From assembly GCA_016183805.1 (NCBI GenBank), contig JACPDX010000034.1, positions 1,122 through 65,121 of the forward strand: 64,000 bases of DNA, in the 5' to 3' direction. Within the stretch, counting starts at the first letter, position 1; the number at the start of each line of letters is the position of its first letter. This document shows, piece by piece, positions 16,757 through 62,300 of this stretch. This DNA comes from Bacteroidota bacterium. GTDB lineage: Bacteria; Bacteroidota; Bacteroidia; Flavobacteriales_E; Vicingaceae. The translations under genes and the position numbers were made by a program. Under the pieces are notes generated by a model, which was given only the letters and a program-made list of their open reading frames with translations, ran no database searches and had not been told where the DNA came from.

Positions 16757-16869
16757 TAATTATAGTTTAATAAACTTGGATTTGTTCGTAAATGTGATAA
16801 AAAATAAGTTGCATTACAATTATTTCATAAAAATAATTAAAAAACTTGCATTTTAAATAAAAATTGCTT

Positions 16870-16877
16870 TAACTTTG
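16870..16877 (+). promoter_or_regulatory. -7 promoter element for small lipoprotein gene
   Basis: TAACTTTG with TTG about 21 nt upstream; ATG lies only 6 nt downstream. Confidence 0.55.
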
Positions 16878-16883
16878 TATGTG

Positions 16884-17138: not shown

Positions 17139-17229
17139 CATTCTTCTTCTCCTAAAAAGATATAATACAATATCTTCTTTAATTTTCTATTAACCAAGTT
17201 TCGCAAACTTTTTTATTATTGTATATTAA

Positions 17230-17262
17230 AGAAGCAAAGCTTTTTTACAAAACTTTGCTTCT
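17230..17262. repeat. REP-like palindrome
   Basis: AGAAGCAAAGCTTT / AAAACTTTGCTTCT; same family as 4007-4039. Confidence 0.65.
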
Positions 17263-17283: not shown

Positions 17284-17313
17284 ACACAAAACCATCTATT
17301 TTTCAACCGTTAA
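17284..17313 (+). promoter_or_regulatory. Bipartite motif ACACAAAAC-N13-ACCGTTAA, copy 1
   Basis: Identical halves and spacing at 27618-27647. Confidence 0.6.
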
Positions 17314-17366
17314 TCAAATACTGTGTATAAGTTTCCAACATTCTTTATAAATTTACACTATAATTA

Positions 17367-17399
17367 TTTGGATTAAAAAATATATATTCTATATCTTTG
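17367..17399 (+). promoter_or_regulatory. Primary-sigma promoter of the TonB receptor operon
   Basis: TTTG (17367-17370), 21-nt spacer, TATCTTTG (17392-17399). Confidence 0.7.
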
Positions 17400-17449
17400 G
17401 CTCCTCTTAATTTGCACGAATAATAATTTTATAGATTAAATTACTGAAT

Positions 17450-20400
17450 ATGTTGAAAAGACTAGCTGTTTTTACGTTGTCCATGTTTATCGGATTTGTT
17501 GCTTATGCACAATCAGGGACAATAAAAGGTAAAATGATTGATAAGGCAACAAACGAACCGTTACCTTTCGCCAATATTGTTGTTTTTAAAGGTGGAGCCC
17601 AAGTGGCAGGAACCATGACAGATATGGATGGCAAATACACCATTTCAGCATTATCTCCAGGTACTTATGAAATTCAGGCTTCTTATGTAGGTTATCAACC
17701 GGTAAAAATGTCGGGTGTTGTAGTTAATGATGGAAAAATTACCTTTTCAGATATTAAAGCAGGTCAAGGTATTGACTTGGAGGGTTTTGAATTGTTTGAT
17801 TATGAAGTTCCATTGATTTCTAAGGATCAAACTTCTTCTGGTGGTACTGTTTCAAGAGAAGATATTGCTAAAATGCCAGGGCGTTCTGCTGCATCTATAG
17901 CACAAACTGTAGGTGGAGTAAACGTTAATGAAGATGGTTCATATAACATTAGAGGTTCGAGAACATCGGGTACCGATACTTATATAGATGGTATTCGTGT
18001 TAGGGGTTCAGCTAATTTACCGAATGCTGCCATTGAACAAGTTACTGTTATTACCGGTGGTATGCCTGCTGAATACGGTGATGCTACAGGTGGTATAGTT
18101 AGTATAACAACTCGTGGAGCCTCTAAAGAATGGTTTGGAGGACTAGAATATTTAACTTCAGGCTTTAAATCTGGTAAAAAAGTTGTCGGTTTAGATCAAT
18201 TTGGGTATAACTTGTTAGGTTTTAACTTAGCCGGACCTTTATTTACTAGGAAGGATACTGCTGGTAATAAAACTGATGCTATTGCCGGTTTCTTTATTTC
18301 AGGTGAGTTTAAAAGTGAAGTTGATTCACGACCATCAGCTATAAATAATTATAAAGTGAATGATGAAGTAATGGATGAGTTGAATGCAAATCCCTACATT
18401 AGAAGGCTTGATGATGCCAATAGCATAATAAACAGTGCTTCTTATGTGAAAGCAAGCGATTTAGAAACCACAAGATTCAGACAAAATGTTGGAAGAAAAG
18501 GAATGAATTTGTCTGGTAAAATAGATATTTCTCCTACTAAAAATACGACCATTACTTTAGGAGGAACATTTGATTTTGAGGATAGAAATGCTGAAGTTCG
18601 TAGTACATCAGGAGCATATTCATTATTTAATTCACAAAAAAACCCTCAAGTTATTGATCGTACATGGAGAACTTACGCCAGATTTACACAACGTTTTGAT
18701 AACAATGAAGATAAAGACAATCCTGCTTTAATTAAAAATGCATTTATTTCTTTACAAGCAGATTATTCAAATGTTTTTAATAAAGTTCAAGATGAAGATC
18801 ATCAAGATCAATTAGCAAATTACGGTTACATTGGTAAATTTAAATCTACTAAAGAACAAACGTTTAACATGGGTCAATCTCCAGAAACATTTATTTCGCT
18901 TGATGCAAACGGTAACGCTGTAGATACCATTAGAGGGTATTTAGCAACAAACGAAGTAACCCTTTATGAGTTTACCAGAGATGAGATAAATCCTATTTTA
19001 GCTAACTACACTGATAATTATTATCAAATTTTTGCCAACGATCCTATCGGTAATTGGGAGCGTCCTTCACAGGTTCAAGGTCAAGGAGGACTGTTAAATG
19101 GTGATAGTCCAGGTTCGGTGTATAATTTATGGTCTTCTATGGGTACCCAATACAATGGTTACCAAATGACTAATCAAGATCAATGGAGAATTACTATTGC
19201 TGGTAGTGCCGAAATTAAAGGGCATTCCATTAAAGTTGGATTTCAATATGAACAACGAACAATTAGTTCGTACAATATTTCACCTGTCGGTTTATGGACA
19301 ACAGGAAGAGGTTTAGTAAATACACATTTAGACAATAGAGATTTTACCGAAGGAAATTATAGCGTTGGAACTTCTCCTTTTTATTGGCCGACTTCAGATT
19401 CTACTAGTGCCACAGGTTTTGATACGTTATATCAATATACTTTTCAACCATTTTATGGAGCCAATCAAACTCAATTTGATAAAAATATCAGAGCAAAATT
19501 AGGATTAGCTGAACAAGGGTTAGATTGGATAGATTTTGATTCTTATGGTAATGGTTTATGGTCTGTATCTGATTTTACTGCCGATGATTTATTGAATAAC
19601 TATGGTCAAAACGGTATTAATTATTATGGTTATGATTACACCGGTAAAAAATTATCAGGAAATCCTTCATTAGATGATTTTTTCTACGATACAGATGACA
19701 ATGGAAATTTAAAAAGAGAATTAGGTGCATTTAAACCAATTTATATGGCAGGTTATATTCAGGATAAATTTGCTTTCGAGGATTTAATTTTTAACATTGG
19801 TGTTCGAGTAGATAGATATGATGCCAATCAACCCGTTTTAAAAGACAAATATTCTATGTTTCCTGTGAAAACCGTTTCTGAAGTAGGTAATATTCCTGAT
19901 AAACCGTCGAATATTGGTAATGATTTTGTAGTATATGTTGCCGATGCAGGAGACCCTTCTGTGAATGCTATTGTTGGTTATCGTGATGGCGATACTTGGT
20001 ATGATGCTGATGGTAAAGAATTAACCGATCCATCTGTTCTTCATGCTACCGGCACTCCAAACCCATGGTTGGTTGATGCAAACGATAATTCGGTAATAAA
20101 AGATTTAAGCCCTGCTTCTTTTAAAGATTATGTGCCTCAAATTAATGTATCTCCTCGTATTGCGTTTTCTTTCCCAATATCTGATGAAGCCTTGTTTTTT
20201 GCACACTACGATGTGTTAACTCAACGACCTTCATCAAACAGTAGTTTGCAATTGATAGATTATTTGTTGATACAAAATAATACCAATAGAATCAATAACC
20301 CTGATTTAAAGGCAGAAAGAACCATCGATTATGAATTAGGATTTCAGCAAAAATTGAATAACTATTCATCATTAAAAATTGCAGCTTTTTATCGTGAACA

Positions 20401-21208
20401 AAAAGATATGATTCAAGTAGTTAGAGTAACAGGTGCTTATCCTGAAAATTATTTGTCCTACGGTAATCAAGATTTTGGTACAGTTAAAGGTATGACCTTT
20501 TCTTATGATTTAAGAAGAAAAGGTAATTTTTCGATGAGAGCATCTTATACGTTGCAGTTTGCTGATGGAACAGGTTCCAGCTCGACAACATCGCTAAATT
20601 TAGTTTCTAGTGGTAACAGTAATCTAAAAACATTAATGCCTTTGTCTTTCGATCAACGTCATGTGATTGTATTAGCTTCAGATTATAGATACGGTGCCGG
20701 AAAAGATTATACAGGCCCTGTACTTTTTGGTAAAGAAATCCTAGCAAATACTGGTGCCAACATTATTTTTAGAACAGCATCGGGTGAACCTTATACCAAA
20801 ACATCAAGAGTTGTGAATAGTTCGGTAATATCTGGAGCATTTAACAGCCCAATGGTTGGTTCATTTAATACTTCTCGGTTGCCTTGGACAACTACTGTGG
20901 ATTTAAAAGTGGATAAAAATATTGATTTAAAATGGGGTAAAGGTGAAGGAGAAGAAAGAACTAAAGCGTACTTAAATATATATTTCCAAATTTTGAATGT
21001 ATTAAACACTCAAAATATATTAGATGTGTATTCTGCTACAGGAAATGCTGATGACGATGGGTTTTTGGCTGCTGCCGAATGGCAAACATTAATTTCAGCC
21101 AATGCTGATGAACAAGCTTTTAGAGATTTATATCAGGCAAAAATGGCAGATCCAGCGAATTATGCTTTACCTCGAAGAATCAGATTAGGATTACAGTTAA
21201 ATTTTTAA
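17450..21208 (+). CDS. TonB-dependent receptor with N-terminal carboxypeptidase-regulatory-like domain
   Basis: Signal peptide; GTIKGKMID...PLPFANIV N-domain; plug IRGSR...YIDG...IEQVTVITGGMPAEYGDATGGIVSITT; LKAERTIDYELG; C-terminal PRRIRLGLQLNF. Confidence 0.92.
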   Translation: MLKRLAVFTLSMFIGFVAYAQSGTIKGKMIDKATNEPLPFANIVVFKGGAQVAGTMTDMDGKYTISALSPGTYEIQASYVGYQPVKMSGVVVNDGKITFSDIKAGQGIDLEGFELFDYEVPLISKDQTSSGGTVSREDIAKMPGRSAASIAQTVGGVNVNEDGSYNIRGSRTSGTDTYIDGIRVRGSANLPNAAIEQVTVITGGMPAEYGDATGGIVSITTRGASKEWFGGLEYLTSGFKSGKKVVGLDQFGYNLLGFNLAGPLFTRKDTAGNKTDAIAGFFISGEFKSEVDSRPSAINNYKVNDEVMDELNANPYIRRLDDANSIINSASYVKASDLETTRFRQNVGRKGMNLSGKIDISPTKNTTITLGGTFDFEDRNAEVRSTSGAYSLFNSQKNPQVIDRTWRTYARFTQRFDNNEDKDNPALIKNAFISLQADYSNVFNKVQDEDHQDQLANYGYIGKFKSTKEQTFNMGQSPETFISLDANGNAVDTIRGYLATNEVTLYEFTRDEINPILANYTDNYYQIFANDPIGNWERPSQVQGQGGLLNGDSPGSVYNLWSSMGTQYNGYQMTNQDQWRITIAGSAEIKGHSIKVGFQYEQRTISSYNISPVGLWTTGRGLVNTHLDNRDFTEGNYSVGTSPFYWPTSDSTSATGFDTLYQYTFQPFYGANQTQFDKNIRAKLGLAEQGLDWIDFDSYGNGLWSVSDFTADDLLNNYGQNGINYYGYDYTGKKLSGNPSLDDFFYDTDDNGNLKRELGAFKPIYMAGYIQDKFAFEDLIFNIGVRVDRYDANQPVLKDKYSMFPVKTVSEVGNIPDKPSNIGNDFVVYVADAGDPSVNAIVGYRDGDTWYDADGKELTDPSVLHATGTPNPWLVDANDNSVIKDLSPASFKDYVPQINVSPRIAFSFPISDEALFFAHYDVLTQRPSSNSSLQLIDYLLIQNNTNRINNPDLKAERTIDYELGFQQKLNNYSSLKIAAFYREQKDMIQVVRVTGAYPENYLSYGNQDFGTVKGMTFSYDLRRKGNFSMRASYTLQFADGTGSSSTTSLNLVSSGNSNLKTLMPLSFDQRHVIVLASDYRYGAGKDYTGPVLFGKEILANTGANIIFRTASGEPYTKTSRVVNSSVISGAFNSPMVGSFNTSRLPWTTTVDLKVDKNIDLKWGKGEGEERTKAYLNIYFQILNVLNTQNILDVYSATGNADDDGFLAAAEWQTLISANADEQAFRDLYQAKMADPANYALPRRIRLGLQLNF

Positions 21209-21238
21209 AAGAATTACCTACTTAAAAGATAGATAGAT

Positions 21239-24200
21239 ATGAAAAACCAACGTAATAATACTACCAAACTTGTTTTAGCATGTGTTGCATTACTTGCTTT
21301 TGGTTCGCTTCATGCACGTATGGCGAATAATAATACCAATGGAAATGGAAATAAAGGTGGTGGCAACAATCCAACACCTACGGCTGGTTGTTCTCCGGCA
21401 GTTGCATTGGCATCGCTTGAATTTAACAATGTTAGAGCCAGAATCGATGCTACCGGAGGTAGTATGTTTCAAGACAGAGCTAACAGTATTGCTGCTTATA
21501 ATGTTCCTAAACAGAATTCAGAAAACGATCCCTTATATACAGCTTTGTATGCCGGTTCATTGTGGATTGGTGGTGTTGATGCTGCAGGACAATTAAAAGT
21601 AGCTGCCGTAACTTTTAGAAGTGGTGGTGCTAATGATTTTTGGCCCGGTCCTTTGGATAATACTGCAGAAGTTGATGCAAACACTTGCGAAGTTTTTGAC
21701 CAATTTTTTGGAATTTCTCGTCCTATGGTTAACGAATTTGTAGCTTGGTTTGCCGACAAAGATGCTTACCCTGATTACCAAATACCTGCTGCCATTTTAA
21801 ATTATCCGGCTAGAGGAAATACGGTAAAAAAGAAACAATATGCATATTATGTGGCTGATCAATTAGCTCCTTTTGTTGATGTTGATGGAGATACTTATTA
21901 TGACCCTGCTCAAGGCGATTATCCTTGGTACGATTTAAAAGGAACTAACGATTGTAGAACAAACAGAGAAGTCCCTTTGTTTGGAGACACCACCTTATGG
22001 TTTGTATTTAATGACAAAGGAAATACACATTCCGAATCTCAAGGTTTATCCATTGGTATGGAAATTAGAGGTCAAGCCTTTGCTTTTGCTACCAATGACG
22101 AAATTAACAACATGACTTTTTACAATTATGTATTGATTAACCGATCGAATTTCACCTTTCAAAATACCTATTTTGGGCAATGGATTGATGCGGATTTAGG
22201 TAATTCTGGTGATGATTTTGTGGGTTGTGATGCGTCCAGAGGTTTAGGATATTGTTACAATGGTGATGCTAATGATGAAGATGCGAATGGTGTTACCGGT
22301 TATGGCTCTACACCACCTTATATTGGTGTTGATTTTTTTGAAGGTCCTTACATGGATAATGATGGAATTGATAACCCATTAACAACAGATATACCAACGG
22401 CAATAGCCCAAAATGGGATTCCTTATGCCGGTTTAGGTATTGGTTATGGTGATGGTATTATTGATAATGAACGTTACGGAATGCGTAAATTTGTTTATTA
22501 TAATAATGGTGGTCCTGCCGTTAGTGCAGACCCTAATAATGCAGCTGAATATTATAATTATTTACGTGGGATATGGCTTGCTGGCGGTGGCAACATGACA
22601 TGGGGAGGTGATGGTATTCCTGCAAATAATAATAGTAATATTCAAGCAGACTTAATGTTTCCGGGAGAATCCGACCCGTTGAATTGGAGTACAAAAGGTG
22701 AGCCTGTTCCTCCAGGTACTGAAGATTGGACTGAGTCTAGTGTACCTAATAATCCTGCTGATAGGCGTTTTATTCAATCGGCAGGTCCGTTTGAGTTGAC
22801 ACCTGGTGCGGTTAATAACATTACTGTTGGAGTGGTTTTTGCTAGAGCTTTAAGTGGGAATAACCTTTCTTCATTAACCTACCTACAGGTAGCAGATGAT
22901 AAAGCACAAGCTTTGTTCGACAATTGTTTTAGAATTTTAGAAGGCCCCAATGCACCTGATGTTACCATTCAGGAATTAGAAAATGAATTGATTTTATTTT
23001 TATCGAATAATAACCCCATTTCTAACAATTACAAAGAGGGAGCCAACCTTAAAGACCCCTTTATTTCTATTCCGGATACCTTGGATGGTGTGTATCAAGG
23101 CACTGATGAAGATAAGGATACGTTGAAATATTATAAGTTTCAAGGTTATCAGGTTTATCAAATTAAAAACACCAATGTTTCTGTTAGTCAATTAACTGAC
23201 CCTAGTTTATCCCGTTTAATTGCTCAGGTCGATATCAACGATAACATTGGACAAATTGTTAATTACACTTACGATGTATCAATCAATGCAAATGTTCCAA
23301 AAGAAATGGTGAATGGGAAAAACGCAGGAATTAATCATTCTTTTAGAATAACAGAGGATGCTTTTTCTACCAGTACCAATAAAAAATTGGTGAATCATAA
23401 AACCTATCATTTTATTGCTATTGCTTATGCGTATAACAATTGGAAAACTATAGATCCTCAATATTTTGCTGCCGGTGGCCAGTTAAAACCATATTTGGCA
23501 AGTAGAACAAGTTCTACAGGAGGGGGTATTCGATCATATTCAGGAATACCTCACAGTCCAAAACCAACCAATGGGGGTACTATTTTGAACTCAGATTATG
23601 GCGATATGCCTGAAATTACCAGAATTGAAGGTGCCGGTAATGGAGGATTGGTTTTAGAATTAACCTCAGCTTCAGAAGTTCAAATTGTTTCAGCTAACTT
23701 TATGGATTATCCGGTTTACCAAGCTGGTTATGGTCCACTTGAAGTAAAAGTAATTGACCCGTTGAATGTTAAAAAAGGAACCTATTATCTACAATTTTTA
23801 GATACAACTACAGCTCCTGTAGGTGTTAATCCGTTAGATGATGCTTATTGGAGAATGATAAATGGCTCGGATACCACTTATTCCGAGAGAAACATTGGTT
23901 TTAGAAATGAACAATTGTTTAGTGATTTAGGTTTTTCAGTTACTTTAAGCCAAACTACCTCTCCTGGTGTTGAAACTAGTGTGGGTGAAAACAATGGATT
24001 TATTTCTACTACTATTTCTTATGCTAATCCTTTAAAACCATGGCTATCAGGTGTTTTTGATGCTGATGCTGCTAATGATTTGAATTGGATAAGATCTGGT
24101 ATACAAAGTTTTTATCAGGCACCAGTTGGTGGAGACCCTGGTTTCCCAAAAGATTATGATGATGCTGGAGATTATATCGTAGCAGATTCTATAACCATTT

Positions 24201-25438
24201 TTTATGATCCGGAACAAAAGTTTGAAAATATGTTGAACGGTACTTGGGCTCCGTATCGATTGGTATCTACAGTGGTGATAGGAAATAACAAACCTATTTC
24301 TAGGATAAAAAATGCTCCTGGGATTGTTGATCATTTCGTTTCTGGGGCTACATCAAACTATTTTACGACAGTTACACATGCTTCATCTAAATTAGCCAAT
24401 TCAGAATCAGTTGATATTGTTTTTACCAATGATCAAAGTAAATGGACTCGTTGTGTAGTTTTTGAGACAGGTAGCGATAAAAATGCAGTAGAAGGAAATG
24501 TGGCCTATTTTTCAAAACGATTTGCCGCCAATGTGGATAAAAATGGCAACCCTGATAGTACATTAAATCCATTAGGAGCTACAGGAAATGGTATGAGTTG
24601 GTTTCCTGGTTATGCCATTAATGTGGAAACCGGTGAACGTTTAAACATGGCATTTGGTGAAGACAGTAAATACATCAATTTTAACGGTAGAGACATGAAA
24701 TGGAATCCAACTGCTGATTATTATAAATGGGATACTATTAATATGGTGTTAGACACGGTTCTTGGTGCAAGGCATTATACCTACGTATTTAATACCAGAT
24801 ATGATGAATGTAAAAAGTTAGACAGTTTGTTGTCTTTATCTAGACCATCGCCTATTAGTAGTCCTTCTACTGCTCAAGGAAAAACTCAAAAATACATTGC
24901 AGAATCAGCGATGTGGGTAGGTTTTCCTGTGGTTGCTGGTGGTCAATCGTTACTATCAAATGATGCGAGAATAAAAATTAGAGTTACAACACCTTATAAA
25001 AATTTAACTACAGCAAACACTGCTAATCCAACAACTTTTGGTAACAGTCAGCGACCCATGTACATGTTTACGATGGATGCGTTTGCTGCTGAAACTGGTG
25101 ATGCCACGGCTGCAAAAGAAGTATTGGATATGATTAAGGCGGTACCTAATCCTTATTATGCATATTCGGAATACGAAAATGATAAATTCGACAACAGAAT
25201 TAAAATAACAAATTTACCGGAGAACTGTACCATTTCAATTTACAACGTTGGTGGTACCTTAATGAGAAGATATGTTAAAGGAGATTCCAAAACGAGTTTA
25301 GATTGGGATTTAAAAAATCACGCAGGTATTCCTGTCGCCGGAGGAGTTTATCTTATCCATATTGAAATACCGGATGTAGGCGAAACGGTTATCAAATGGT
25401 TTGGAGTTGCCAGACCAACAGATTTGAATGGATTGTAA
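21239..25438 (+). CDS. Large T9SS cargo protein with type-A C-terminal sorting domain
   Basis: Signal peptide, N/G-rich linker, Dx[DN]xD motifs, CTD VPNPYY...ISIYNVGGTLMR...WDLKNHAGIPVAGGVYLIHI. Confidence 0.82.
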   Translation: MKNQRNNTTKLVLACVALLAFGSLHARMANNNTNGNGNKGGGNNPTPTAGCSPAVALASLEFNNVRARIDATGGSMFQDRANSIAAYNVPKQNSENDPLYTALYAGSLWIGGVDAAGQLKVAAVTFRSGGANDFWPGPLDNTAEVDANTCEVFDQFFGISRPMVNEFVAWFADKDAYPDYQIPAAILNYPARGNTVKKKQYAYYVADQLAPFVDVDGDTYYDPAQGDYPWYDLKGTNDCRTNREVPLFGDTTLWFVFNDKGNTHSESQGLSIGMEIRGQAFAFATNDEINNMTFYNYVLINRSNFTFQNTYFGQWIDADLGNSGDDFVGCDASRGLGYCYNGDANDEDANGVTGYGSTPPYIGVDFFEGPYMDNDGIDNPLTTDIPTAIAQNGIPYAGLGIGYGDGIIDNERYGMRKFVYYNNGGPAVSADPNNAAEYYNYLRGIWLAGGGNMTWGGDGIPANNNSNIQADLMFPGESDPLNWSTKGEPVPPGTEDWTESSVPNNPADRRFIQSAGPFELTPGAVNNITVGVVFARALSGNNLSSLTYLQVADDKAQALFDNCFRILEGPNAPDVTIQELENELILFLSNNNPISNNYKEGANLKDPFISIPDTLDGVYQGTDEDKDTLKYYKFQGYQVYQIKNTNVSVSQLTDPSLSRLIAQVDINDNIGQIVNYTYDVSINANVPKEMVNGKNAGINHSFRITEDAFSTSTNKKLVNHKTYHFIAIAYAYNNWKTIDPQYFAAGGQLKPYLASRTSSTGGGIRSYSGIPHSPKPTNGGTILNSDYGDMPEITRIEGAGNGGLVLELTSASEVQIVSANFMDYPVYQAGYGPLEVKVIDPLNVKKGTYYLQFLDTTTAPVGVNPLDDAYWRMINGSDTTYSERNIGFRNEQLFSDLGFSVTLSQTTSPGVETSVGENNGFISTTISYANPLKPWLSGVFDADAANDLNWIRSGIQSFYQAPVGGDPGFPKDYDDAGDYIVADSITIFYDPEQKFENMLNGTWAPYRLVSTVVIGNNKPISRIKNAPGIVDHFVSGATSNYFTTVTHASSKLANSESVDIVFTNDQSKWTRCVVFETGSDKNAVEGNVAYFSKRFAANVDKNGNPDSTLNPLGATGNGMSWFPGYAINVETGERLNMAFGEDSKYINFNGRDMKWNPTADYYKWDTINMVLDTVLGARHYTYVFNTRYDECKKLDSLLSLSRPSPISSPSTAQGKTQKYIAESAMWVGFPVVAGGQSLLSNDARIKIRVTTPYKNLTTANTANPTTFGNSQRPMYMFTMDAFAAETGDATAAKEVLDMIKAVPNPYYAYSEYENDKFDNRIKITNLPENCTISIYNVGGTLMRRYVKGDSKTSLDWDLKNHAGIPVAGGVYLIHIEIPDVGETVIKWFGVARPTDLNGL

Positions 25439-25441
25439 AAA

Positions 25442-25497
25442 GTGACAAGGGACTGGGGACAAGAAACTAGAAACCAGTAGCTAAAAACTAAAAACTT
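25442..25497 (+). repeat. Degenerate heptamer tandem array
   Basis: GTGACAA GGGACTG GGGACAA GAAACTA GAAACCA GTAGCTA AAAACTA AAAACTT. Confidence 0.6.
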
Positions 25498-25512
25498 AAA
25501 AAAGGTTTGAAT

Positions 25513-26554
25513 ATGAAGAATATTAGAATTGTAATAACGCTATTTTTTGCAGGATTAACTGCCACGACGTCAGTTTTTGCCGGAAATGAAGACAGAGCTG
25601 GTGAGGCAGGAGCTTCACAATTACTAATTAATCCATGGGTTAGAAGTGTGGGTTTTGGAGGTGCAAATACTGCATCAGCTATTGGCTTAGAAGCTATGAA
25701 TTTGAATATTGCCGGAATGGCTTTTACCAAAAAAACAGAAGTAATGTTTTCCAATAAAACTTGGTTAAAAGGAAGTAATACTTTCGTTAATTCATTTGGT
25801 TTAACTCAAAAAGTTAGTGAAACAGGTGTTTTAGGTGTTTCTATTATGTCTATGGATTTTGGCGACTTAGATGTTACCACAGTTGACTTACCGGAAGGTG
25901 ACGGAAGTACTTTTTCACCGAGTTATTTGAATTTTGATATAGCTTATGCTAAGAAGTTTTCTAACAGTATTTCGGGTGGTCTTGTTGTTAAAGTGATTAC
26001 TGAATCTATTTCAAATATTAGCAGTACAGGTGTTGCCTTTAATGCCGGTGTTAAATACGTTACCGGCGAAAACGACCGTATTAAATTTGGAATTTCCTTA
26101 AATAATGTTGGACCATCTATGCAGTCAACAGGTGAAGGATTGTCTTTTACAAATGTTGACATAAATACAGGTATTACATCAACTCAGCAACGTAAATCGG
26201 CAACTTATCAGTTACCTTCATTATTAAACATTGGTGCTACTTACGATTTTTATGTTGCTGCTGTTAAAGATTCTGCTTCTAATCAGATTAAAGCTAATCA
26301 TAGAATTACTCTTGCTGGTAACTTTACTGCAAATTCGTTTACTAAAGACCAATACCGACTTGGTTTAGAATATGGGTTTAGAAATATGTTTATGGTCAGA
26401 GCAGGTTATGTACTGGAGAGTACAACATGGTTTGATTCAAATTTAAGAACTTCTGCATATACCGGACCTGCTTTTGGAGGTTCATTAATTGCACCTCTTG
26501 GAAAATGAACGTTTTTCCGGAACACACAGTATTGGTATCCGTTTAGATTTATAA
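25513..26554 (+). pseudogene. PorV-family outer-membrane barrel, frameshifted near 26506
   Basis: GNEDRAGEAGASQLLINPWVRSVGFGGA and GLEAMNLNIAG are PorV-like; TGA at 26506-26508, while the family-like terminal strand FSGTHSIGIRLDL* continues in the +1 frame to 26554. Confidence 0.75.
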
Positions 26555-26579
26555 TAGAATTTATATAAATAAATTATAA

Positions 26580-26609
26580 AAGAGAACCCGGCGACGGATT
26601 CTCTTTTTT
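26580..26609 (+). terminator. Intrinsic terminator ending the receptor-cargo-PorV operon
   Basis: AGAGAACCCG-GCGA-CGGATTCTCT plus T run. Confidence 0.75.
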
Positions 26610-26630
26610 CGCTTTAAAACCCTTAGAGTT

Positions 26631-27104
26631 ATGGCACAAATTAATTACTATACCGAAGATGGTCTAAAAAAATTGAATGAAGAGTTAGATCAATTAAAAA
26701 ATGTTGAAAGGGCTAGTGTTTCTGCACAAATTGCTGAAGCAAGAGACAAAGGAGATTTATCAGAAAATGCTGAATATGATGCAGCAAAAGAAGCACAAGG
26801 ACTTTTAGAATTAAAAATATCTAAATTGGAAGCCATTGTTGCTAATGCACGGGTAATTGATGAATCACAATTAGATACTTCAAAAGCCTTGATATTTTCT
26901 AAAGTGAAGATTAAAAATATTGCCAATAAAATGGTGATGGAATATACCTTGGTTTCTGAAAAAGAAGCTAATTTAAAAGAAAAAAGAATTTCTGTCGATT
27001 CGCCTATTGGAAATAGTTTGTTGGGTAAATCGGTTGGTGATGTGGTTGAAGTTAAAGTTCCTACAGGGAAAGTTAATTTCGAAATTTTAGAAATTTCCAG
27101 ATAA
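26631..27104 (+). CDS. greA: Transcription elongation factor GreA
   Basis: EARDKGDLSENAEYDAAKE, ISVDSPIG. Confidence 0.97.
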   Translation: MAQINYYTEDGLKKLNEELDQLKNVERASVSAQIAEARDKGDLSENAEYDAAKEAQGLLELKISKLEAIVANARVIDESQLDTSKALIFSKVKIKNIANKMVMEYTLVSEKEANLKEKRISVDSPIGNSLLGKSVGDVVEVKVPTGKVNFEILEISR

Positions 27105-27487
27105 TGCAACCTTCTATTTTTACTAAAATTATTACTAAAGAAATTCCTGCCTACATCATTGATGAAAGTGATGATTTTATTGCTTTTTTAGATGTCTTTC
27201 CTTTGGCTAAAGGTCATGTTTTAGTGGTTCCTAAAAAACAAGTAGATTATATTTTTGATTTAGAACCGGCAATTTATTCCGGTTTATGGTTATTTGCTAA
27301 CACCATTGCAAAAAGATTGCAAAAAGCAATTCCTTGTAAACGTGTTGGAATTGCTGTTATTGGACTAGAAGTACCTCACGCACATGTTCATTTAATCCCG
27401 CTTCAATCTGTTGAGGACATTAATTTTACTAGATCCAAGTTAACATTAACCAAAGAAGAGTTTGAGGAGCTGACGATGATTATTTAG
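27104..27487 (+). CDS. HIT-family hydrolase
   Basis: SIFTKII, PLAKGHVLVVPK, histidine triad VPHAHVHLIP. Confidence 0.93.
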   Translation: MQPSIFTKIITKEIPAYIIDESDDFIAFLDVFPLAKGHVLVVPKKQVDYIFDLEPAIYSGLWLFANTIAKRLQKAIPCKRVGIAVIGLEVPHAHVHLIPLQSVEDINFTRSKLTLTKEEFEELTMII

Positions 27488-27617
27488 GTTTCATTATTTA
27501 TTCAATTTTTTTTCTTATTAGATCCAAAATAATCCAAATGAGTCTTTTTTTTACCCTTTTTCGTCTAAAAAACACTTGTTTTTAGAAACCTAAAATGCAC
27601 AAAAAGCATCGTTTTTG

Positions 27618-27647
27618 ACACAAAACTGGTCAAATACATACCGTTAA
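27618..27647 (+). promoter_or_regulatory. Bipartite motif ACACAAAAC-N13-ACCGTTAA, copy 2
   Basis: Matches 17284-17313; extra CACAAAA half 21 bp upstream (27598-27604). Confidence 0.6.
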
Positions 27648-27733
27648 AAAGAAAAATTGAACATTGCTTTTATTTGCTTTTTTCGTGATATAATATTGTA
27701 TTTAATTATTAATCTTTAAAAAACAATATTATT

Positions 27734-30211
27734 ATGAAAACAAAATCTTTTTTCATGCTTTTTTTAGTATTCTTTCTAACAAAAAGTATGGTCTCTCAAA
27801 ACCCTGTATGGTCATTACCTCCTTACTATCTAGATAATTTAAATAATCTAAATTTATTACCAAGCTTTGGAGTGTATTCTGGACAACAAGCTGAAATAAC
27901 TCATAATTCGTATGCAGATGCAAATGGCAATATCCTTTTTTTTATTGTTGATGATATGCTTTATACAGATAATGGGGCTTTTCCACTTATCTTTTCGAGT
28001 CAATCAAAATTTACTATGGGTACAGAGGTTATGATTGTTCCTTTTGAAAATGATTGTAATAAATTTTATTTATTTTATAGCCTCGCTATGTCAGGTTCGC
28101 CGAGCACTGGTTTTAATAAATTTACGCCGATTTATGGAATACTGAACCTAAATGATAATGGATACCCTTCATTTTCAGGCCCTGATTTCCTGGTAAATAT
28201 TCCTTCTACTAATTATAGTGATTTTAATTATGGTTTTGAAATAGATAAGAGCTCTGAACCTACTAATGCTACGACAACATTAAATATGAATAATGAAAGG
28301 TTTGTTTTTTTTCAATTAAAAACCAAAGTATTAACTTATAAAATTACTTCAACTGGGCTTTTTTATGTCGGTGTTATTGATATGCCCTACTATAGAAATG
28401 GAAATTGTATGGGAGAAATGGAAGTAGTAGAATTAGCGAGTTCATATCGTCTAGCATATAGTTTTAGAATTGTTATTAATCCTCTTAATCAACAATTACC
28501 AATAACTGCCTATGCAATGATCACTTATTTAGATATAGATAAAAATACAGGACTGGAAATACCATCTTCAAAATATACCATTTCTTATCCAGAAGATAAT
28601 AATCAACCTGTTAATAATAAGGTATATATTCATGGAATAGAGTTGACTCCAGATGGTAACCTTTATATTTCGCACAGTCAATCAACATTAACACCTGGTA
28701 TTATTGATTTTTTCAATATAAATTCACCAACTTTACCAATTCTACCTGTTTCCAATATTCCATTAATCGATGCTTTAGATTTTCAAAACTCTCAAATAGA
28801 ATATAAAAATAATAAACTCTATTTTGTTTGTGGTAATCGTTTAGCGACATATGATATCATATTAGATGACTGGAATAATAATGAAAAATCACTTGGATTT
28901 GTCTATAACCCAGTTTTTGCTACACAGATATGGAAAAAAACATTTCTCTTAATAGACCAAATAGATGGTATGGATTATAGTGCAATTGCTAATATTGGTG
29001 TTTCGGTGACTGGAAATACCAATTTTTGTGCTGGAGATGCATTAACATTTAACGGTTCTATTACACAAGGTTATGCTACTGGTTATTTTTGGGAAATAGC
29101 AGAGTCTGACGCTCAAGGAGTTCCAACAACTAATGGATATGTGTGGAGTCAATCATATACAGGTAGCCCATCAGGTTCGTTTACTTTTCCAACCTTACCA
29201 TTAGTTTGTGGTAAATTTTATAAAATAAAACTAGCTGCATATAATGAATGTAACCCTTGGTCAGAAACAAATTTGGTAATTAAAATTAATTGTTTACCAA
29301 CGGTTAATTCAAATAATATAACTTTATGTGCTAATGACCCTAATCCTTTATTAACAAGCGGGCATGGGAAAGGGTATACTTATAGTTGGACTATGTCCCC
29401 ATCTACTACTGTTGTTGGTACTACTTCAAACTTGCAACTTCCAATAGCAGGTCAATCCTCTCCTGAAGGAACATATTGTGTAGAGGTTACCCAAAATTCA
29501 ACAGGTTGTTCTAATACAGGTTGTTCAACGGTACAATATGACCCAAGATTGAATAATACCCCATATTTTGAACAAAATGTGACTTGTGTTAGTGGTGATA
29601 ATTCAATTACTGTTAGTGTTACGGTAAGTGGACTTAATGGTTATGTACCCCAAAATATGGTAAATGTTTTTTATTTATATCATTATAATACATCAACATC
29701 AGCGTGGGAATATACTAACCAAGCTTATTGGGACTTTAATAATTCTACAACTTTTGTTTTTGGCGGACCAACTAGCTCTCTCGGTTTTACCATGATTCAA
29801 GGTGAAACATATTTTATTCAAAGGGGAATAGGAAGTTATCCAGATAACTGTTTACCTACAGTTTATTTTATAGGTAATTCAATTAATTGTACTGCAAAAG
29901 GATTATCACCTAAATCGTACAAAATTTCTGAAGAAGAATTACAATCACTTAATATAAATCATGATTTATTTAGTCAGCTCAAAATCAATATTTATCCAAA
30001 TCCATCAACGGGTAATTTTACGTTATCACTTAATCAAGAAGTTGAAAATGGAACTGTTCAAGTATTGGATTATATTGGTAAAATAATTTTAGAAAAAAAT
30101 AGTTTAGAAAGTAACATGAATATTGATATTTCAAGTATGCCTTCGGGTTTATATTTTGTAAAAGTGGTTTCTGCTAACGGTATTAGCATGGAAAAACTAA
30201 TCAAGAATTAA
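27734..30211 (+). CDS. T9SS type-A cargo with propeller-like N-half and Cys-containing Ig/PKD-like repeats
   Basis: Signal peptide; canonical CTD INIYPNPSTGNFT...LDYIGK...MPSGLYFVKV...EKLIKN. Confidence 0.88.
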   Translation: MKTKSFFMLFLVFFLTKSMVSQNPVWSLPPYYLDNLNNLNLLPSFGVYSGQQAEITHNSYADANGNILFFIVDDMLYTDNGAFPLIFSSQSKFTMGTEVMIVPFENDCNKFYLFYSLAMSGSPSTGFNKFTPIYGILNLNDNGYPSFSGPDFLVNIPSTNYSDFNYGFEIDKSSEPTNATTTLNMNNERFVFFQLKTKVLTYKITSTGLFYVGVIDMPYYRNGNCMGEMEVVELASSYRLAYSFRIVINPLNQQLPITAYAMITYLDIDKNTGLEIPSSKYTISYPEDNNQPVNNKVYIHGIELTPDGNLYISHSQSTLTPGIIDFFNINSPTLPILPVSNIPLIDALDFQNSQIEYKNNKLYFVCGNRLATYDIILDDWNNNEKSLGFVYNPVFATQIWKKTFLLIDQIDGMDYSAIANIGVSVTGNTNFCAGDALTFNGSITQGYATGYFWEIAESDAQGVPTTNGYVWSQSYTGSPSGSFTFPTLPLVCGKFYKIKLAAYNECNPWSETNLVIKINCLPTVNSNNITLCANDPNPLLTSGHGKGYTYSWTMSPSTTVVGTTSNLQLPIAGQSSPEGTYCVEVTQNSTGCSNTGCSTVQYDPRLNNTPYFEQNVTCVSGDNSITVSVTVSGLNGYVPQNMVNVFYLYHYNTSTSAWEYTNQAYWDFNNSTTFVFGGPTSSLGFTMIQGETYFIQRGIGSYPDNCLPTVYFIGNSINCTAKGLSPKSYKISEEELQSLNINHDLFSQLKINIYPNPSTGNFTLSLNQEVENGTVQVLDYIGKIILEKNSLESNMNIDISSMPSGLYFVKVVSANGISMEKLIKN

Positions 30212-30232
30212 GTTTAGTTTAGTGTTTTTTGT

Positions 30233-42903: not shown

Positions 42904-42910
42904 GAATAAA

Positions 42911-45445: not shown

Positions 45446-45450
45446 TTTTT

Positions 45451-59380: not shown

Positions 59381-59388
59381 TACATTTG
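59381..59388 (+). promoter_or_regulatory. -7 promoter element of the two-component pair
   Basis: TACATTTG, 9 nt upstream of ATG 59398. Confidence 0.6.
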
Positions 59389-59397
59389 AATCTACAA

Positions 59398-62300
59398 ATG
59401 AGAAAGAACAAACATATATTACTAATACTATTATTTCTTAGTATATGCAAAACAATCTTTTCACAAACATACCATTACAAACATTATACGGTCGAGGATG
59501 GATTACCTAGTTCTGAGGTGTATTCAACTTTTCAGGATTCGAAAGGGTACATTTGGTTTGCAACTGATGCAGGAGTAAGTAGATTTAATGGTTATGAATT
59601 TAAAAATTTTGATGTTAAAGATGGCTTAACTGATAATACTGTTTTTTTAATAAGAGAGGATTCGAAAGGAAGAATCTGGTTTGGTACTTTTAATAAAAAA
59701 CTATGTTATTTTTATAACGATAGTATTTATCCATTTGAACACAACGATAAAATTTTAAAAACCATAGACGGACATGCTATTTTAAATTCATTTGCGATTG
59801 ATAAAGAAGGAACTGTTTGGATGGGGTTTGCATTATATGGAATGCTTAAATGTTCAAAAAATGGAAAGGCAGAATTATTATCCAGTAAAGAAGAAAATAA
59901 ACTAATAATTTATGAAATAGATGATCAACAGGTTTGGACTTTATCAAGAGATGAAGCAGTAATTCTTAATATTTTCAAGAACAACATTCCAGAGAGGCAA
60001 AATGTAAAAGTTGAATATCACAACAAAACAAATGTAGTAAGTTTAGGGGAATTTAATATGTTATTTAGCTCTGGTAAAACCGAAGGATCATTTAATTTCA
60101 TTTTTCATAAAACTGACAATAATAAAATACTTTTTTTCGAAGATAGTCTTGGTTTTTTAGACTTAAAAGCAAAATATATTTTAAATAATTCGGTTAGTTT
60201 AAAAAATATGTTTCATAATAGAATACTTTCCACATCCTCATTTGATGATTGTTTATGGATATGTGTAGAAAATGAAGGTATTTATCAATTTAAAACTGTT
60301 AATCAACAATTAATTTTTGAAGAAAACATTTCTATTAACAAATTGGTTTCAAGAATATTTAAAGATGCTTCGGGAGGATATTGGATTACTACACTGAATG
60401 AGGGGGTTTATTATTTAAAAACAAGGAAATTTAAACATGAGAATTATATATTATCTTCAATTGATATTAATCCTGAAAATAAATTAATTTATTTAGGATT
60501 GAAAGATAAAAGATTAATTCAGAAAAGTATAAGTATTAAGAACTCAACGACAAAACAAATAGCAAAATTTGACGATATTCCAAATACTATACTATACGAT
60601 AACAAGGATAAAAGTATACTATCAGATGGCTATTTCAATTATTTTAAAAAAAATTATAAAAATGGAACTTCTAAGAAAATTAATGTAATCCATCCATCAA
60701 CAAAAGCTTTCATCATTGATTCTAATTTGATTTATCGGGTAAATAGTAACGGACTTTCTAAAATTGTTGATGATAAAGAGGTCTATTATTCATTTGTAGA
60801 AGGTAAAGAAAGATATTGGTGTACAAGTTTAGTAAAGGATGGAAAAAGAATATGGATAGGAACGAATGATGGTTTAGTTTGTTTTGATGGTGATACCTAT
60901 AAGATTACTGAACCGTTTAAGAATCATAAACTTTTGAAGACTTCAATTACCTGTTTAGAAAAATTAAATAACGACATCATTTTAATTGGCACAAAGAGTT
61001 TCGGACTTTTATTGATGCAAAATGAAAAAATTATTGCAGTTGTCAACCAAAAAAAAGGACTTGCAAGTGATTTGGTTCGGTGTATTCATATTGACCATCA
61101 ACATGAGATTTGGGTAGGAACAAACAAGGGACTATCAAGGTTAAATTACAAATCACCGGAAAATTTTAATATTCAGAATATTACCACCAATCATGGGTTA
61201 ATATCAAACGAAATATCACACATTCGTTCGTATAAAAACACCATTTTTTTGGTTACTCCCAAAAACCTTGTTGAATTTGATAAAACTAATCTAACAATTA
61301 ACAAAACACCATTGCCCATCTACATTACTAAATTTAAGGTAAATGATGTAGAAAAAGATTTAAAGAAAAATCCGTCAATTGAACTTTCGTACGATGAAAA
61401 TAGAATAGATATACATTTTGAAAGTTTAAATTATAAAAGTTTAGGAGATATTAATTATAAGTATAGGTTATTGGATGTAGATACTACTTGGCAAAATACC
61501 TCACAAACAACGGTTAGTTTTTATGCATTACCGCCGGATAATTATACTTTTGAGGTAAAAGCACAAAACGAAGATGGATTTTGGAGTAAACCGGCAACTT
61601 ATTCTTTTAAAATTAAACCTCCTTTTTGGCTAACTTGGTGGTTTATTGGTTTTGAAGTTGTTTTTATCATCCTTATTTTGATGATTATTTTTAAATACAG
61701 AGAGGCTCAATTGTTGATAAAAAGTAAAAATTTACAAAGGATGGCCGAAAATGAGAAGAAAATTATGGAATTGGAACTCAAGGCATTAAAATCTCAAATG
61801 AACCCTCATTTTATTTTTAACACCTTAAACTCTATTCAACATTTTATTTCAACTAATAATTTTAAAGATTCGAATAGGTATATCACCAATTTTTCCAGGC
61901 TAATCCGTATGGTTTTAAATCAATCGGATAAAAGTTATATTACTTTACGGGAAGAAACAGAAATGCTTAAATTGTACTTAAGTTTAGAACAAGTGAGATT
62001 TAGTAATGAATTTGAATTTGTAATAAACTTTGATGATAGTATTGATTTAGATTTTGATAAAATTCCGCCAATGTTATTGCAACCCTTTGTTGAAAATGCT
62101 ATATGGCACGGATTGATGAATAAAAAAGAAAAAGGACATATTGAAATTAAATTTATTATAGATGGAGATTATTTATTATGTACAGTTACAGATAATGGGA
62201 TTGGTAGGGTAGCAGCCGAAGAAATTAAAGCAACACGAAAAATTCAAAATAAATCGGTAGGCATGACCATAACCAAAGAAAGGCTAAACATTATTAATAG

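What the first reader, a model, noticed from the sequence alone, without database searches (positions are those of the whole stretch)
17284..27647. Identical bipartite motif ACACAAAAC-N13-ACCGTTAA upstream of two separate T9SS type-A cargo units
Seen: copies at 17284-17313 (before the TBDR operon) and 27618-27647 (before the orphan 825-aa cargo) share 17 identical bases with identical spacing, while the 13-nt spacers differ. Copy 2 has a further CACAAAA one 21-bp period upstream (27598). Established: LytTR proteins bind repeats on a roughly 21-bp period and ACCGTTAAT fits the classical LytTR half-site; ECF sigma promoters use AAC...CGT elements. Inference: a shared operator or ECF promoter defines a regulon of secreted surface proteins, possibly served by a LytTR regulator such as the one at 62411.
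Basis: partly seen in the sequence, partly recalled or inferred. Interest (0 to 1): 0.75.

Follow-up and report, generated by a model that had tools for sequence, protein, structure and literature searches.

The report
Operator for a LytTR response regulator
The repeated motif is real and conserved, and is most likely the DNA docking site of a sensor-kinase/LytTR regulator pair that switches on genes for type IX-secreted proteins in an uncultured groundwater Vicingus-like bacterium; it is a new example of a familiar kind of control element, not a new kind.

Summary
They are the only matches in 64 kb even with 3 mismatches (0.02 expected at up to 2 mismatches), and they are not part of a longer repeat.

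The same bipartite site (nYACAAAAM-N13-ACCGYTWA, spacer always 13) recurs in relatives. In 6 of 6 related loci where the orthologue of the window's LytTR regulator (62411-63166) is followed by a gene on the same strand, the site lies directly after the regulator gene. In four of them a type IX-secreted cargo gene follows.

A matrix built only from sites outside the window ranks 27640 first and 17306 second of 127,942 window positions.

Boxes form arrays on a strict 21-bp period. The proximal half-site and the 13-bp spacer match the experimentally used E. coli BtsR/YehT operator (ACCGCTTA-N13-ACCACTCA).

A Bacteroidetes -7-like box (TAnnTTTG, one mismatch allowed) starts 43-46 nt after box 2 in 10 of 15 sites (0 of 5000 random shifts reach this). 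That places the site upstream of a housekeeping-sigma core promoter.

The ECF-promoter reading fails: AAC is missing in 7 of 12 sites and CGT in 3 of 12.

There are no transcription-start or binding data. The site before the TBDR operon is the weaker member, and that operon has no detectable type-A sorting domain.

The parts
17284..17292 (+). Site 1, distal box (ACACAAAAC; 8-mer CACAAAAC at 17285-17292)
   Evidence: In orthologous TBDR promoters this box is only loosely kept (ACACAAAAA, ACACAAATC, ACCACAAA, ACCAGAAA, ACCTCAAA), with a spacer of 11-13.
17306..17313 (+). Site 1, proximal box (ACCGTTAA)
   Evidence: Kept as ACCGTTAA or ACCGTTAG in 8 of 9 orthologous TBDR promoters (protein identity 70-93%). 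It marks the 5' edge of the conserved block. A matrix trained without window sites ranks it second of 127,942 window positions.
17367..17399 (+). Canonical Bacteroidetes housekeeping promoter of the TBDR operon: -33 TTTG (17367-17370), 21-nt spacer, -7 TATCTTTG (17392-17399)
   Evidence: Sequence read. Conserved in all 9 orthologues. The TAnnTTTG consensus at -12 to -5 is taken from PMC9723704. It starts 79 nt after box 2.
17450..26508 (+). Downstream operon of site 1: TBDR-like protein (17450-21208), 1399-aa protein without known domains (21239-25438), PorV/PorQ-family protein (25507-26508)
   Evidence: The operon is conserved in Vicingaceae and beyond.
27598..27605 (+). Site 2, extra distal box CACAAAAA, 21 bp before the next box
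   Evidence: L001a has the equivalent TCCAAAAC, also 21 bp upstream.
27618..27626 (+). Site 2, distal box (ACACAAAAC)
   Evidence: Kept as ATACAAAAC, TCACAAAAT and GCACAAAAC before the cargo homologues in L001, L002 and L060.
27640..27647 (+). Site 2, proximal box (ACCGTTAA)
   Evidence: A matrix trained without window sites ranks it first of 127,942 window positions.
27691..27698 (+). Probable -7 promoter box (TAATATTG) of the cargo gene, starting 44 nt after box 2
   Evidence: The same offset (43-46 nt) is seen in 10 of 15 sites, and 0 of 5000 random shifts reach this. That it is the -7 box is an inference; no transcription-start data exist.
27734..30211 (+). 825-aa T9SS type-A cargo gene, the target of site 2
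   Evidence: PF18962 E=6e-16 and TIGR04183. It is an accessory gene: absent between HIT and RuvC in L009 and L010. Only 14 homologues were found, the best at 45% identity.
59386..62400 (+). Sensor histidine kinase: beta-propeller (Reg_prop) and Y_Y_Y sensor domains, one membrane helix, LytS-type His_kinase (PF06580) and HATPase
   Evidence: Orthologues at 41-76% identity.
62411..63166 (+). Response regulator with receiver and LytTR DNA-binding domains; proposed binder of the motif
   Evidence: LytTR E=7e-13. Orthologues at 47-94% identity. 28% identical to E. coli BtsR.

Best explanation
The motif is the operator of the two-component system encoded at 59386-63166. That system pairs a kinase with a large periplasmic beta-propeller/Y_Y_Y sensor and a LytS-type kinase core with a receiver-LytTR response regulator. 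Proposed mechanism: on an unknown extracytoplasmic signal the kinase phosphorylates the regulator. The regulator then binds as two or more protomers to 8-nt boxes spaced 21 bp apart, which puts them on one face of the helix. The promoter-proximal box ACCGYTWA is the strong site. The distal box(es) are CACAAAAM or ACC-type. A-tracts lie in the 13-nt spacer and just after box 2. In cargo-type promoters the array sits about 60 and 81 bp upstream of the start of a housekeeping-sigma promoter and activates it. [quoted passage not shown] In this lineage the conserved TBDR-like/1399-aa/PorV-like operon is probably a target too. Shown here: the motif, its conservation, its linkage to the regulator gene, the 21-bp arrays, its phasing with -7-like boxes, and its identity with the E. 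coli BtsR half-site and spacer. Inferred: actual binding, activation rather than repression, the transcription start sites and the signal.
For: 1. Chance is excluded: there are 2 matches where 0.02 are expected.
2. Phylogenetic footprint: promoters of cargo orthologues at only 39-45% protein identity keep the two boxes and the 13-nt spacer while the rest diverges.
3. Linkage to the regulator: in L001, L030, L056, L057, L058 and L060, the orthologous kinase/LytTR pair is followed directly by the motif. In L001, L030, L056 and L060 a PF18962 cargo gene comes next. In L057 the next gene is cut off by the contig end, and in L058 the cargo gene is missing. L060 was reached independently, through cargo homology. 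L057 shares the window's YfhO neighbour, which links the two genomic contexts. L055 has a site in front of the kinase gene itself.
4. Non-circular test: leave-one-locus-out matrices rank every held-out site first or second in its locus. The window sites rank first and second of 127,942 positions. In 624 kb of unrelated loci nothing scores above 16.2, while the 12 canonical sites score 21-39, although those 12 are the training set of that full matrix.
5. Target enrichment: for 10 of 15 sites, the first gene or operon downstream encodes a PF18962 protein.
6. LytTR hallmarks: the boxes form arrays on a strict 21-bp period. Examples are CACAAAAA/CACAAAAC/ACCGTTAA, TCCAAAAC/TACAAAAC/ACCGTTTA, ACCAAGAA/ACCAAGAA/ACCGTTTA/ACCACTGA and ACCGTTAA/ACCGCTTA.
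7. Known operator: the E. coli BtsR/YehT binding-site oligo carries ACCGCTTA-N13-ACCACTCA (PMC4847170). The 13-bp spacer is stated in PMC4222967. The site lies upstream of btsT.
8. Phasing with the core promoter: a TAnnTTTG-like box starts 43-46 nt after box 2 in 10 of 15 sites, and 0 of 5000 random shifts reach this.
9. The conserved DNA after site 1 has no RNA structure (0 predicted pairs; z = 0.01) and no Rfam match, so it is conserved as DNA.
Against: There are no binding, transcription-start or expression data, and no RNA runs hold this organism. The two boxes of the canonical site are not repeats of each other, unlike classical LytTR operators, so box 1 could belong to another factor. 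In the window the regulator is about 32-42 kb from its proposed targets. Site 1 is weak by the held-out matrix (score 9.6). In TBDR orthologues its distal box drifts (spacer 11-13), and one orthologue (L006) lacks box 2. Site 1 also lies 79 nt, not 44 nt, from its -7 box. Box2-N13-box2 pairs are not enriched overall (15 against 13 in reversed-sequence controls), so those variants count only through their location. Several sites are related by descent, so there are fewer independent observations than sites. The LytTR domain is only distantly related to BtsR (28% identity over the whole protein), so the shared half-site could be convergence.
Confidence: 0.75

Rival explanations
1. ECF sigma-factor promoter: box 1 supplies the -35 element (AAC) and box 2 the -10 element (CGT), so transcription would start a few bases after CGTTAA.
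For: AAC...CGT is the classic ECF signature. In Flavobacterium psychrophilum an ECF-type motif with a CGT -10 box (SM6) drives T9SS component genes, and in P. gingivalis an ECF sigma controls T9SS genes (PMC9723704). Both window copies do have AAC-N15-CGT.
Against: Among the 12 canonical sites, AAC is missing at that position in 7 (AAAAT, AAAAA, AAAAG, ATTTT). CGT is replaced by CGC or CAT in 3. The invariant bases are instead ACA in box 1 and CC..T.A in box 2. In two sites the distal box is a second ACCGYTWA-type box. Extra boxes recur at 21 bp, which a promoter does not need. The AAC-CGT spacing is 15, shorter than the usual 16-17 (from my own knowledge). The motif is phased with a sigma-A-type -7 box 43-46 nt downstream. 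No ECF sigma or anti-sigma gene was found among the window ORFs that I scanned or among the genes called beside the sites in related loci, whereas a LytTR pair is adjacent in six.
Confidence: 0.05
2. Binding site, wholly or in part, of a different transcription factor. For example, box 1 could be read by a second protein, or the LytTR pair could simply be a frequent neighbour of the cargo island without reading the motif.
For: Box 1 (CACAAAAM) and box 2 (ACCGYTWA) are unlike each other. In the window the regulator is not adjacent to either site. The TBDR promoter carries a long further conserved block (17314-17366) that must bind something else.
Against: The motif follows the regulator gene in both genomic contexts, PolA-linked and YfhO-linked, and it precedes the kinase gene in L055. 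Box 2 plus the 13-bp spacer equals the operator of a characterised LytTR regulator. The 21-bp arrays fit tandem LytTR binding. The only other DNA-binding regulator found among the scanned window ORFs is a MerR protein at 10034-10354.
Confidence: 0.15
3. No function: a chance match, or the remnant of a dispersed repeat or mobile cassette that carried the cargo gene.
For: The 825-aa gene is an accessory insertion between HIT and RuvC. The orthologous spot in L002 carries repeat DNA.
Against: 0.02 matches are expected by chance. Similarity is limited to the boxes. The site before the TBDR operon is at a fixed, conserved place in 8 of 9 relatives. Held-out matrices recover all sites.
Confidence: 0.02

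Closest known systems
E. coli BtsS/BtsR (YehU/YehT) and its operator in the btsT (yjiY) promoter
   Same: A LytS-type kinase core (PF06580) paired with a receiver-LytTR regulator. The operator has two 8-nt boxes separated by 13 bp, and the half-site is ACC[G/A][C/T]T.A. ACCGCTTA occurs verbatim here in L056, L030b and L056c, and ACCGTTTA-N13-ACCACTGA in L055 mirrors ACCGCTTA-N13-ACCACTCA.
   Different: BtsS is a 7-transmembrane pyruvate receptor (title of PMC10653868). Here the sensor is a roughly 720-aa periplasmic beta-propeller/Y_Y_Y domain with one membrane helix. The regulators are only 28% identical. The distal box here is usually CACAAAAM, not a repeat of the proximal box. The targets are T9SS cargo genes, not a pyruvate transporter.
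AgrA, ComE and PlnC-type LytTR operators of Firmicutes
   Same: Pairs of 9-11-nt boxes with 11-13-nt spacers (about a 21-bp period) upstream of the promoter (PMC4847170). The AgrA box ACAGTTAAG differs from ACCGTTAA(A/T) at one or two positions (PMC11039898).
   Different: Those systems sense peptide pheromones through polytopic kinases and autoregulate their own operons. Here autoregulation is seen in only one relative (L055). The boxes are heterologous, and the phylum and promoter type (-33/-7) differ.
ECF-controlled T9SS promoters (F. psychrophilum motif SM6; P. gingivalis PorXY-SigP)
   Same: Dedicated transcriptional control of T9SS-related genes in Bacteroidota, with a CGT-containing element (PMC9723704).
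   Different: Those act on genes of the secretion machinery through a sigma factor. Here the motif lacks conserved AAC and CGT, lies upstream of a sigma-A-type core promoter, and controls cargo genes.
Bacteroides hybrid two-component systems of polysaccharide utilisation loci
   Same: The same periplasmic sensor architecture (Reg_prop propellers plus a Y_Y_Y domain), and a TonB-dependent receptor-like operon among the putative targets (and my own knowledge of the family).
   Different: Hybrid systems fuse kinase, receiver and an AraC output in one protein. Here kinase and regulator are separate proteins and the output domain is LytTR. No SusD-like gene is present.

Membership tests
LytTR-type response-regulator operator | Two boxes of 8-11 nt separated by 11-13 nt (about a 21-bp period) | tested here: met
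   The spacer is exactly 13 in all 12 canonical sites and in three box2-type pairs (L002, L030b, L056c). The 8-mers lie on a 21-bp period, with three- and four-box arrays. The definition is from PMC4847170.
LytTR-type response-regulator operator | The boxes are (imperfect) direct or inverted repeats of one sequence | tested here: inconclusive
   Canonical sites pair unlike boxes (CACAAAAM with ACCGYTWA). Distal boxes repeat each other (CACAAAAA/CACAAAAC; ACCAAGAA twice). A few sites are true ACCGYTWA repeats (L002, L030b, L056c), but such pairs are not enriched overall.
LytTR-type response-regulator operator | Half-site resembles an experimentally defined LytTR site | tested here: met
   ACCGCTTA-N13-ACCACTCA in the E. 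coli btsT promoter compared with ACCGYTWA-N13 here. AgrA ACAGTTAAG.
LytTR-type response-regulator operator | A cognate LytTR regulator is encoded and genomically linked | tested here: met
   Regulator at 62411-63166. The motif lies directly downstream of its orthologue in 6 of 6 loci with a following gene on the same strand.
LytTR-type response-regulator operator | Site lies upstream of, or abuts, the core promoter it controls | tested here: met
   A -7-like box starts 43-46 nt after box 2 in 10 of 15 sites, and 0 of 5000 random shifts reach this. The transcription starts themselves are not known.
LytTR-type response-regulator operator | The regulator binds the site and changes transcription | not testable with these tools
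   No RNA data exist for this organism. EMSA, DAP-seq or reporter assays are needed.
ECF sigma promoter | Nearly invariant AAC in the -35 element | tested here: not met
   AAC is present at the aligned position in 5 of 12 canonical sites.
ECF sigma promoter | Nearly invariant CGT in the -10 element | tested here: not met
   CGC in L056, CAT in L060a and L055hk, and further CGC and CAC boxes in variant sites.
ECF sigma promoter | An ECF sigma/anti-sigma gene next to at least one regulated promoter | tested here: not met
   None among the scanned window ORFs or among the genes called around the sites in L001, L002, L055-L058 and L060. Whole genomes were not available.
T9SS type-A cargo (the regulated genes) | C-terminal sorting domain PF18962/TIGR04183 | tested here: met
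   This holds for the 825-aa protein and for 9 other downstream genes or operons in relatives. It does not hold for the TBDR-like, 1399-aa or PorV-like proteins of unit 1.
Dispersed repeat or mobile-element end | Similarity extends beyond the boxes, with copies scattered without positional bias | tested here: not met
   The alignment of the two regions is similar only at the boxes. No repeat family covers them. All strong sites are intergenic and point at the downstream gene.

The most novel reading that the evidence does not exclude
This would be the first defined operator and regulon for the abundant but uncharacterised Bacteroidota two-component pairs that join a polysaccharide-sensor-like periplasmic beta-propeller/Y_Y_Y domain to a LytS-type kinase and a LytTR regulator. 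It would show that such a system couples an extracellular (possibly glycan) cue to the expression of fast-evolving T9SS cargo. It would do so through an unusual heterologous operator: CACAAAAM distal boxes with a BtsR-like ACCGYTWA proximal box, in arrays of up to four boxes. The half-site would be shared with E. coli BtsR across phyla.
Probability: 0.5. Interest if true: 0.6.

Novelty: new member of a known kind. Interest (0 to 1): 0.5.

Why it matters
Regulation of type IX secretion is known mainly for the machinery genes (PorXY and ECF sigma factors). How individual cargo genes are switched on is largely unknown. Two searches of the paper library returned no paper that links a LytTR regulator to T9SS cargo or gives its binding site.

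A defined operator gives a way to predict the regulon in any Vicingaceae genome. It also provides a ready EMSA or reporter target. And it gives a handle on a very large class of Bacteroidota propeller/Y_Y_Y kinases whose outputs are unknown.

The result is still a comparative prediction of an ordinary type of element, a two-component operator.

Tried and rejected
- **RNA evidence:** no RNA runs hold this organism. Only groundwater and soil DNA metagenomes do, so start sites could not be mapped.
- **Source genome:** the exact 825-aa protein is not on record, so the source genome could not be scanned whole.
- **Known RNA families and RNA structure:** none for the conserved DNA after site 1.
- **Sigma-70 consensus scan:** uninformative, because Bacteroidetes use -33/-7 elements.
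- **Motif before the kinase gene:** present only in L055, not in the window or in L052-L054 and L057. Autoregulation is therefore not general.
- **Box2-N13-box2 pairs:** a degenerate pattern gave 15 pairs against 13 in reversed controls, and an earlier looser scan gave 14 against 26. There is no overall enrichment.
- **Cargo homologue P0008 (L059):** it has no motif, no CTD on record and no adjacent regulator pair. Not every homologue belongs to the regulon.
- **Solved structures:** the search matched only the receiver domain.
- **Palindrome reading (AAC...GTT):** rejected, because it is not kept in relatives.
- **Position of the -7 box:** an alternative -7-like box 15-24 nt after box 2 (for example TAGTTTGY in L001, TATWTTGT in L055) could not be excluded as the real -7 box. 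That would put box 2 at about -38 rather than -60.


Full report
**Observation.** The two copies are exactly as described. ACACAAAAC-N13-ACCGTTAA lies at 17284-17313 and at 27618-27647, both on the + strand. They are the only matches in the 64-kb window even with three mismatches. At up to two mismatches 0.02 matches are expected, and no shuffle of 100 reached two. The 13-nt spacers differ. An alignment of the two upstream regions and a repeat search show that similarity is confined to the boxes, so this is not a dispersed repeat. The extra CACAAAA(A) at 27598 lies exactly 21 bp before CACAAAAC at 27619.

**Gene context.** Site 1 precedes three genes: a TonB-dependent-receptor-like gene (17450-21208), a 1399-aa gene with no known domain, and a PorV/PorQ-family gene. 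Site 2 precedes an 825-aa protein with a type-A T9SS sorting domain. None of the unit-1 proteins has a detectable type-A domain, so the title's 'two type-A cargo units' holds only for the second. The window is 32% G+C. It comes from a Vicingus-like member of the Flavobacteriales seen in groundwater metagenomes.

**Orthologous promoters of the cargo gene.** The cargo protein is rare and evolves fast: 14 homologues, the best at 45% identity. It is an accessory insertion between the HIT and RuvC genes, and is absent at that spot in two relatives whose TBDR-like protein is 84-85% identical. Even so, its orthologues keep the motif:
- ATACAAAAC-N13-ACCGTTTA in L001.
- TCACAAAAT-N13-ACCGTTTA in the syntenic L002.
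- GCACAAAAC-N13-ACCATTAA in L060.

The surrounding DNA has diverged.

**Orthologous promoters of the TBDR operon.** Across nine orthologues (70-93% protein identity), ACCGTTAA or ACCGTTAG is kept in eight, and it marks the 5' edge of a strongly conserved block that runs to the ATG. The distal box is only loosely kept and its spacing varies from 11 to 13.

**Link to the LytTR regulator.** In L001 the cargo orthologue lies directly after a kinase/regulator pair that is 46% and 48% identical to the window pair at 59386-62400 and 62411-63166. I then collected more orthologues of the kinase and, independently, more cargo homologues.
- In all six loci where the regulator gene is followed by a gene on the same strand (L001, L030, L056, L057, L058, L060), the motif sits in the intergenic region right after the regulator.
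- The next gene is a PF18962 cargo in L001, L030, L056 and L060.
- In L058 the cargo is gone but the site remains.
- L057 shares the window's YfhO neighbour, which ties the two genomic contexts together.
- Second sites follow further downstream in L001, L030 and L060, before more CTD genes or unknown genes.
- L055 has one site before the kinase gene and one before an arylsulfotransferase-like CTD gene.
- L056 has one before a 279-aa CTD gene.
- Closer relatives with the window's gene order (L052-L054) have a convergent gene after the regulator and no adjacent site, as in the window.

**Non-circular test.** I built 30-nt matrices leaving out every site of the locus being scanned. Each held-out site ranks first or second among all positions of its locus. 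A matrix with no window site ranks 27640 first and 17306 second of 127,942 window positions. With the full matrix, the 12 canonical sites, which are its training set, score 21-39. The next best hit (15.7) is the L055 cargo site. In 624 kb of unrelated Bacteroidota loci nothing exceeds 16.2. For 10 of the 15 sites, the first gene or operon downstream encodes a PF18962 protein.

**Anatomy.** The spacer is 13 in every canonical site, so the 8-mers CACAAAAM and ACCGYTWA lie 21 bp apart. Invariant bases are ACA in the distal box and CC..T.A in the proximal box. Further boxes appear at the same period:
- CACAAAAA/CACAAAAC/ACCGTTAA (window site 2).
- TCCAAAAC/TACAAAAC/ACCGTTTA (L001).
- ACCAAGAA/ACCAAGAA/ACCGTTTA/ACCACTGA (L055).
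- ACCGTTAA/ACCGCTTA (L056).

In several TBDR orthologues the distal box is ACC-type (ACCACAAA, ACCAGAAA, ACCTCAAA), exactly 21 bp upstream. A-tracts fill the spacer and follow box 2 (AAAGAAAAA).

**Phasing with the core promoter.** A Bacteroidetes -7-like box (TAnnTTTG, one mismatch allowed) starts 43-46 nt after box 2 in 10 of 15 sites. No run of 5000 random shifts reaches this, and it still holds without the closest duplicates. The -7 box lies at -12 to -5 (PMC9723704), so the boxes would be centred near -60 and -81.

**Site 1 differs.** Its perfect promoter (TTTG-N21-TATCTTTG, 17367-17399) starts 79 nt after box 2. The DNA between box 2 and that promoter is conserved but has no RNA structure or Rfam match. 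It is therefore probably further protein-binding DNA.

**Comparison with known systems.** LytTR regulators bind two 9-11-nt repeats separated by 11-13 nt (PMC4847170).
- The E. coli LytS/LytTR pair BtsS/BtsR (YehU/YehT) binds a direct repeat with a 13-bp spacer (PMC4222967).
- The published binding-site oligo reads ACCGCTTA-N13-ACCACTCA. I located it 132-189 nt upstream of btsT in E. coli genomes. ACCGCTTA occurs verbatim in three sites here, and the L055 pair ACCGTTTA-N13-ACCACTGA mirrors the E. coli operator.
- The AgrA box is ACAGTTAAG (PMC11039898).
- The window regulator has a clear LytTR domain (E=7e-13) but is only 28% identical to BtsR.
- The kinase shares the PF06580 core with BtsS. 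Its sensor, however, is a large periplasmic propeller/Y_Y_Y domain like that of Bacteroides hybrid two-component systems, a comparison that rests on my own knowledge of that family.

**The ECF alternative.** There is a real precedent: the CGT-containing SM6 promoters of T9SS component genes in F. psychrophilum (PMC9723704). The alternative still fails here, for five reasons:
- AAC is missing in 7 of 12 canonical sites and CGT in 3 of 12.
- The distal box can be replaced by an ACCGYTWA-type box.
- Extra boxes recur at 21 bp.
- The motif is phased with a sigma-A-type -7 box downstream.
- No ECF sigma gene was found among the window ORFs that I scanned or among the genes called beside the sites in related loci.

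**Verdict.** The motif is a genuine, conserved cis-regulatory element. The best explanation (confidence about 0.75) is that it is the operator of the LytTR response regulator at 62411-63166. It would define a small regulon of T9SS-secreted accessory proteins and, less securely, the TBDR-like/PorV-like operon.
- Shown: the motif, its conservation, its linkage to the regulator gene, its periodicity, its phasing, and its identity with a characterised LytTR operator.
- Inferred: binding, activation, the start sites and the signal.
- Weak points: the two boxes are unlike each other, site 1 scores low and has a different distance to its promoter, some sites are related by descent, and no experimental data exist.

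It is a new member of a known kind of element. It is of moderate interest because cargo-level regulation of the T9SS and the output of this large kinase class are otherwise uncharted.

Noticed in passing
window 17314-17449: About 135 nt of non-coding DNA between site 1 and the TBDR-like gene is conserved almost base for base in nine relatives (70-93% protein identity). It includes a block upstream of the -33 element (TGTGAATAAGTTTCCAA.ATTCTT.ATAAATTTAC, loosely CRP/FNR-like). It has no RNA structure and no Rfam match. It probably binds a second regulator.
   Followed up: partly
window 17230-17262: A perfect 10-bp inverted repeat (AGAAGCAAAG...CTTTGCTTCT) lies just upstream of site 1 and is kept in the closest relative, L004. 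No T-run follows on either strand, so it is not a classical terminator. The 117-aa ORF at 16853-17206 (-) has no family match and may not be a gene, which would leave roughly 700 bp of intergenic DNA.
   Followed up: no
window 27488-30266; L009 20034; L010 20050: The 825-aa cargo gene with its promoter is an accessory insertion between the HIT and RuvC genes, absent in two close relatives. Cargo orthologues are only 39-45% identical where the neighbouring TBDR-like protein is 74% identical (L002). The cargo is therefore evolving very fast or being replaced.
   Followed up: partly
L002 8995-9590: The 1-kb gap before the L002 cargo orthologue holds two 182-nt direct repeats (95% identical, 301 nt apart) and further shorter repeats with small hairpins (TCCCGATATCCATCGGGA). 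They look like a tandem pair of miniature mobile elements.
   Followed up: partly
L054 13016-13778; L060 4204-7068: In L054 the regulator gene is split into 196-aa and 63-aa pieces. L054 is on the same contig as L009, which lacks the cargo gene at the HIT-RuvC spot. In L060 the kinase gene is split into 670-aa and 271-aa pieces. These are either assembly errors or decaying systems.
   Followed up: no
proteins P0190, P0193, P0195, P0196, P0225: These are relatives of the kinase in which the propeller/Y_Y_Y sensor is fused directly to a LytTR domain, with no kinase or receiver listed among their domains. They would be one-component versions of the same signalling idea.
   Followed up: no
window 17450-26508 and loci L004-L013: The three-gene unit (TBDR-like 1252 aa, 1399 aa without known domains, PorV/PorQ-family) is strongly conserved across Vicingaceae. 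It is recognisable down to 43-46% identity in other Bacteroidota MAGs. Its function is unknown, and NCBIfam gives a weak hit to a 'PorV2' model.
   Followed up: partly
window 41602-51268: A second, unrelated T9SS unit lies on the minus strand: a 1513-aa PKD-repeat protein with a type-B (CHU_C) sorting domain. By synteny with L052 and L054, PD40/TPR and PorP/SprF genes follow it. It has no copy of the motif.
   Followed up: partly
L055 11809; L056 12958; L057 12961: Weak matrix hits (scores 12-15) recur at the 3' end of the kinase gene, just before the regulator gene, in three loci. This may be coincidence from shared coding sequence, or an internal site.
   Followed up: no
window 57965-59244 (-): Two adjacent ORFs (227 aa and 192 aa) each match half of a polysaccharide-synthesis (flippase-like) protein that is a single 414-430-aa gene in relatives (L053-L055). 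The gene is probably frameshifted or a pseudogene in the window.
   Followed up: no
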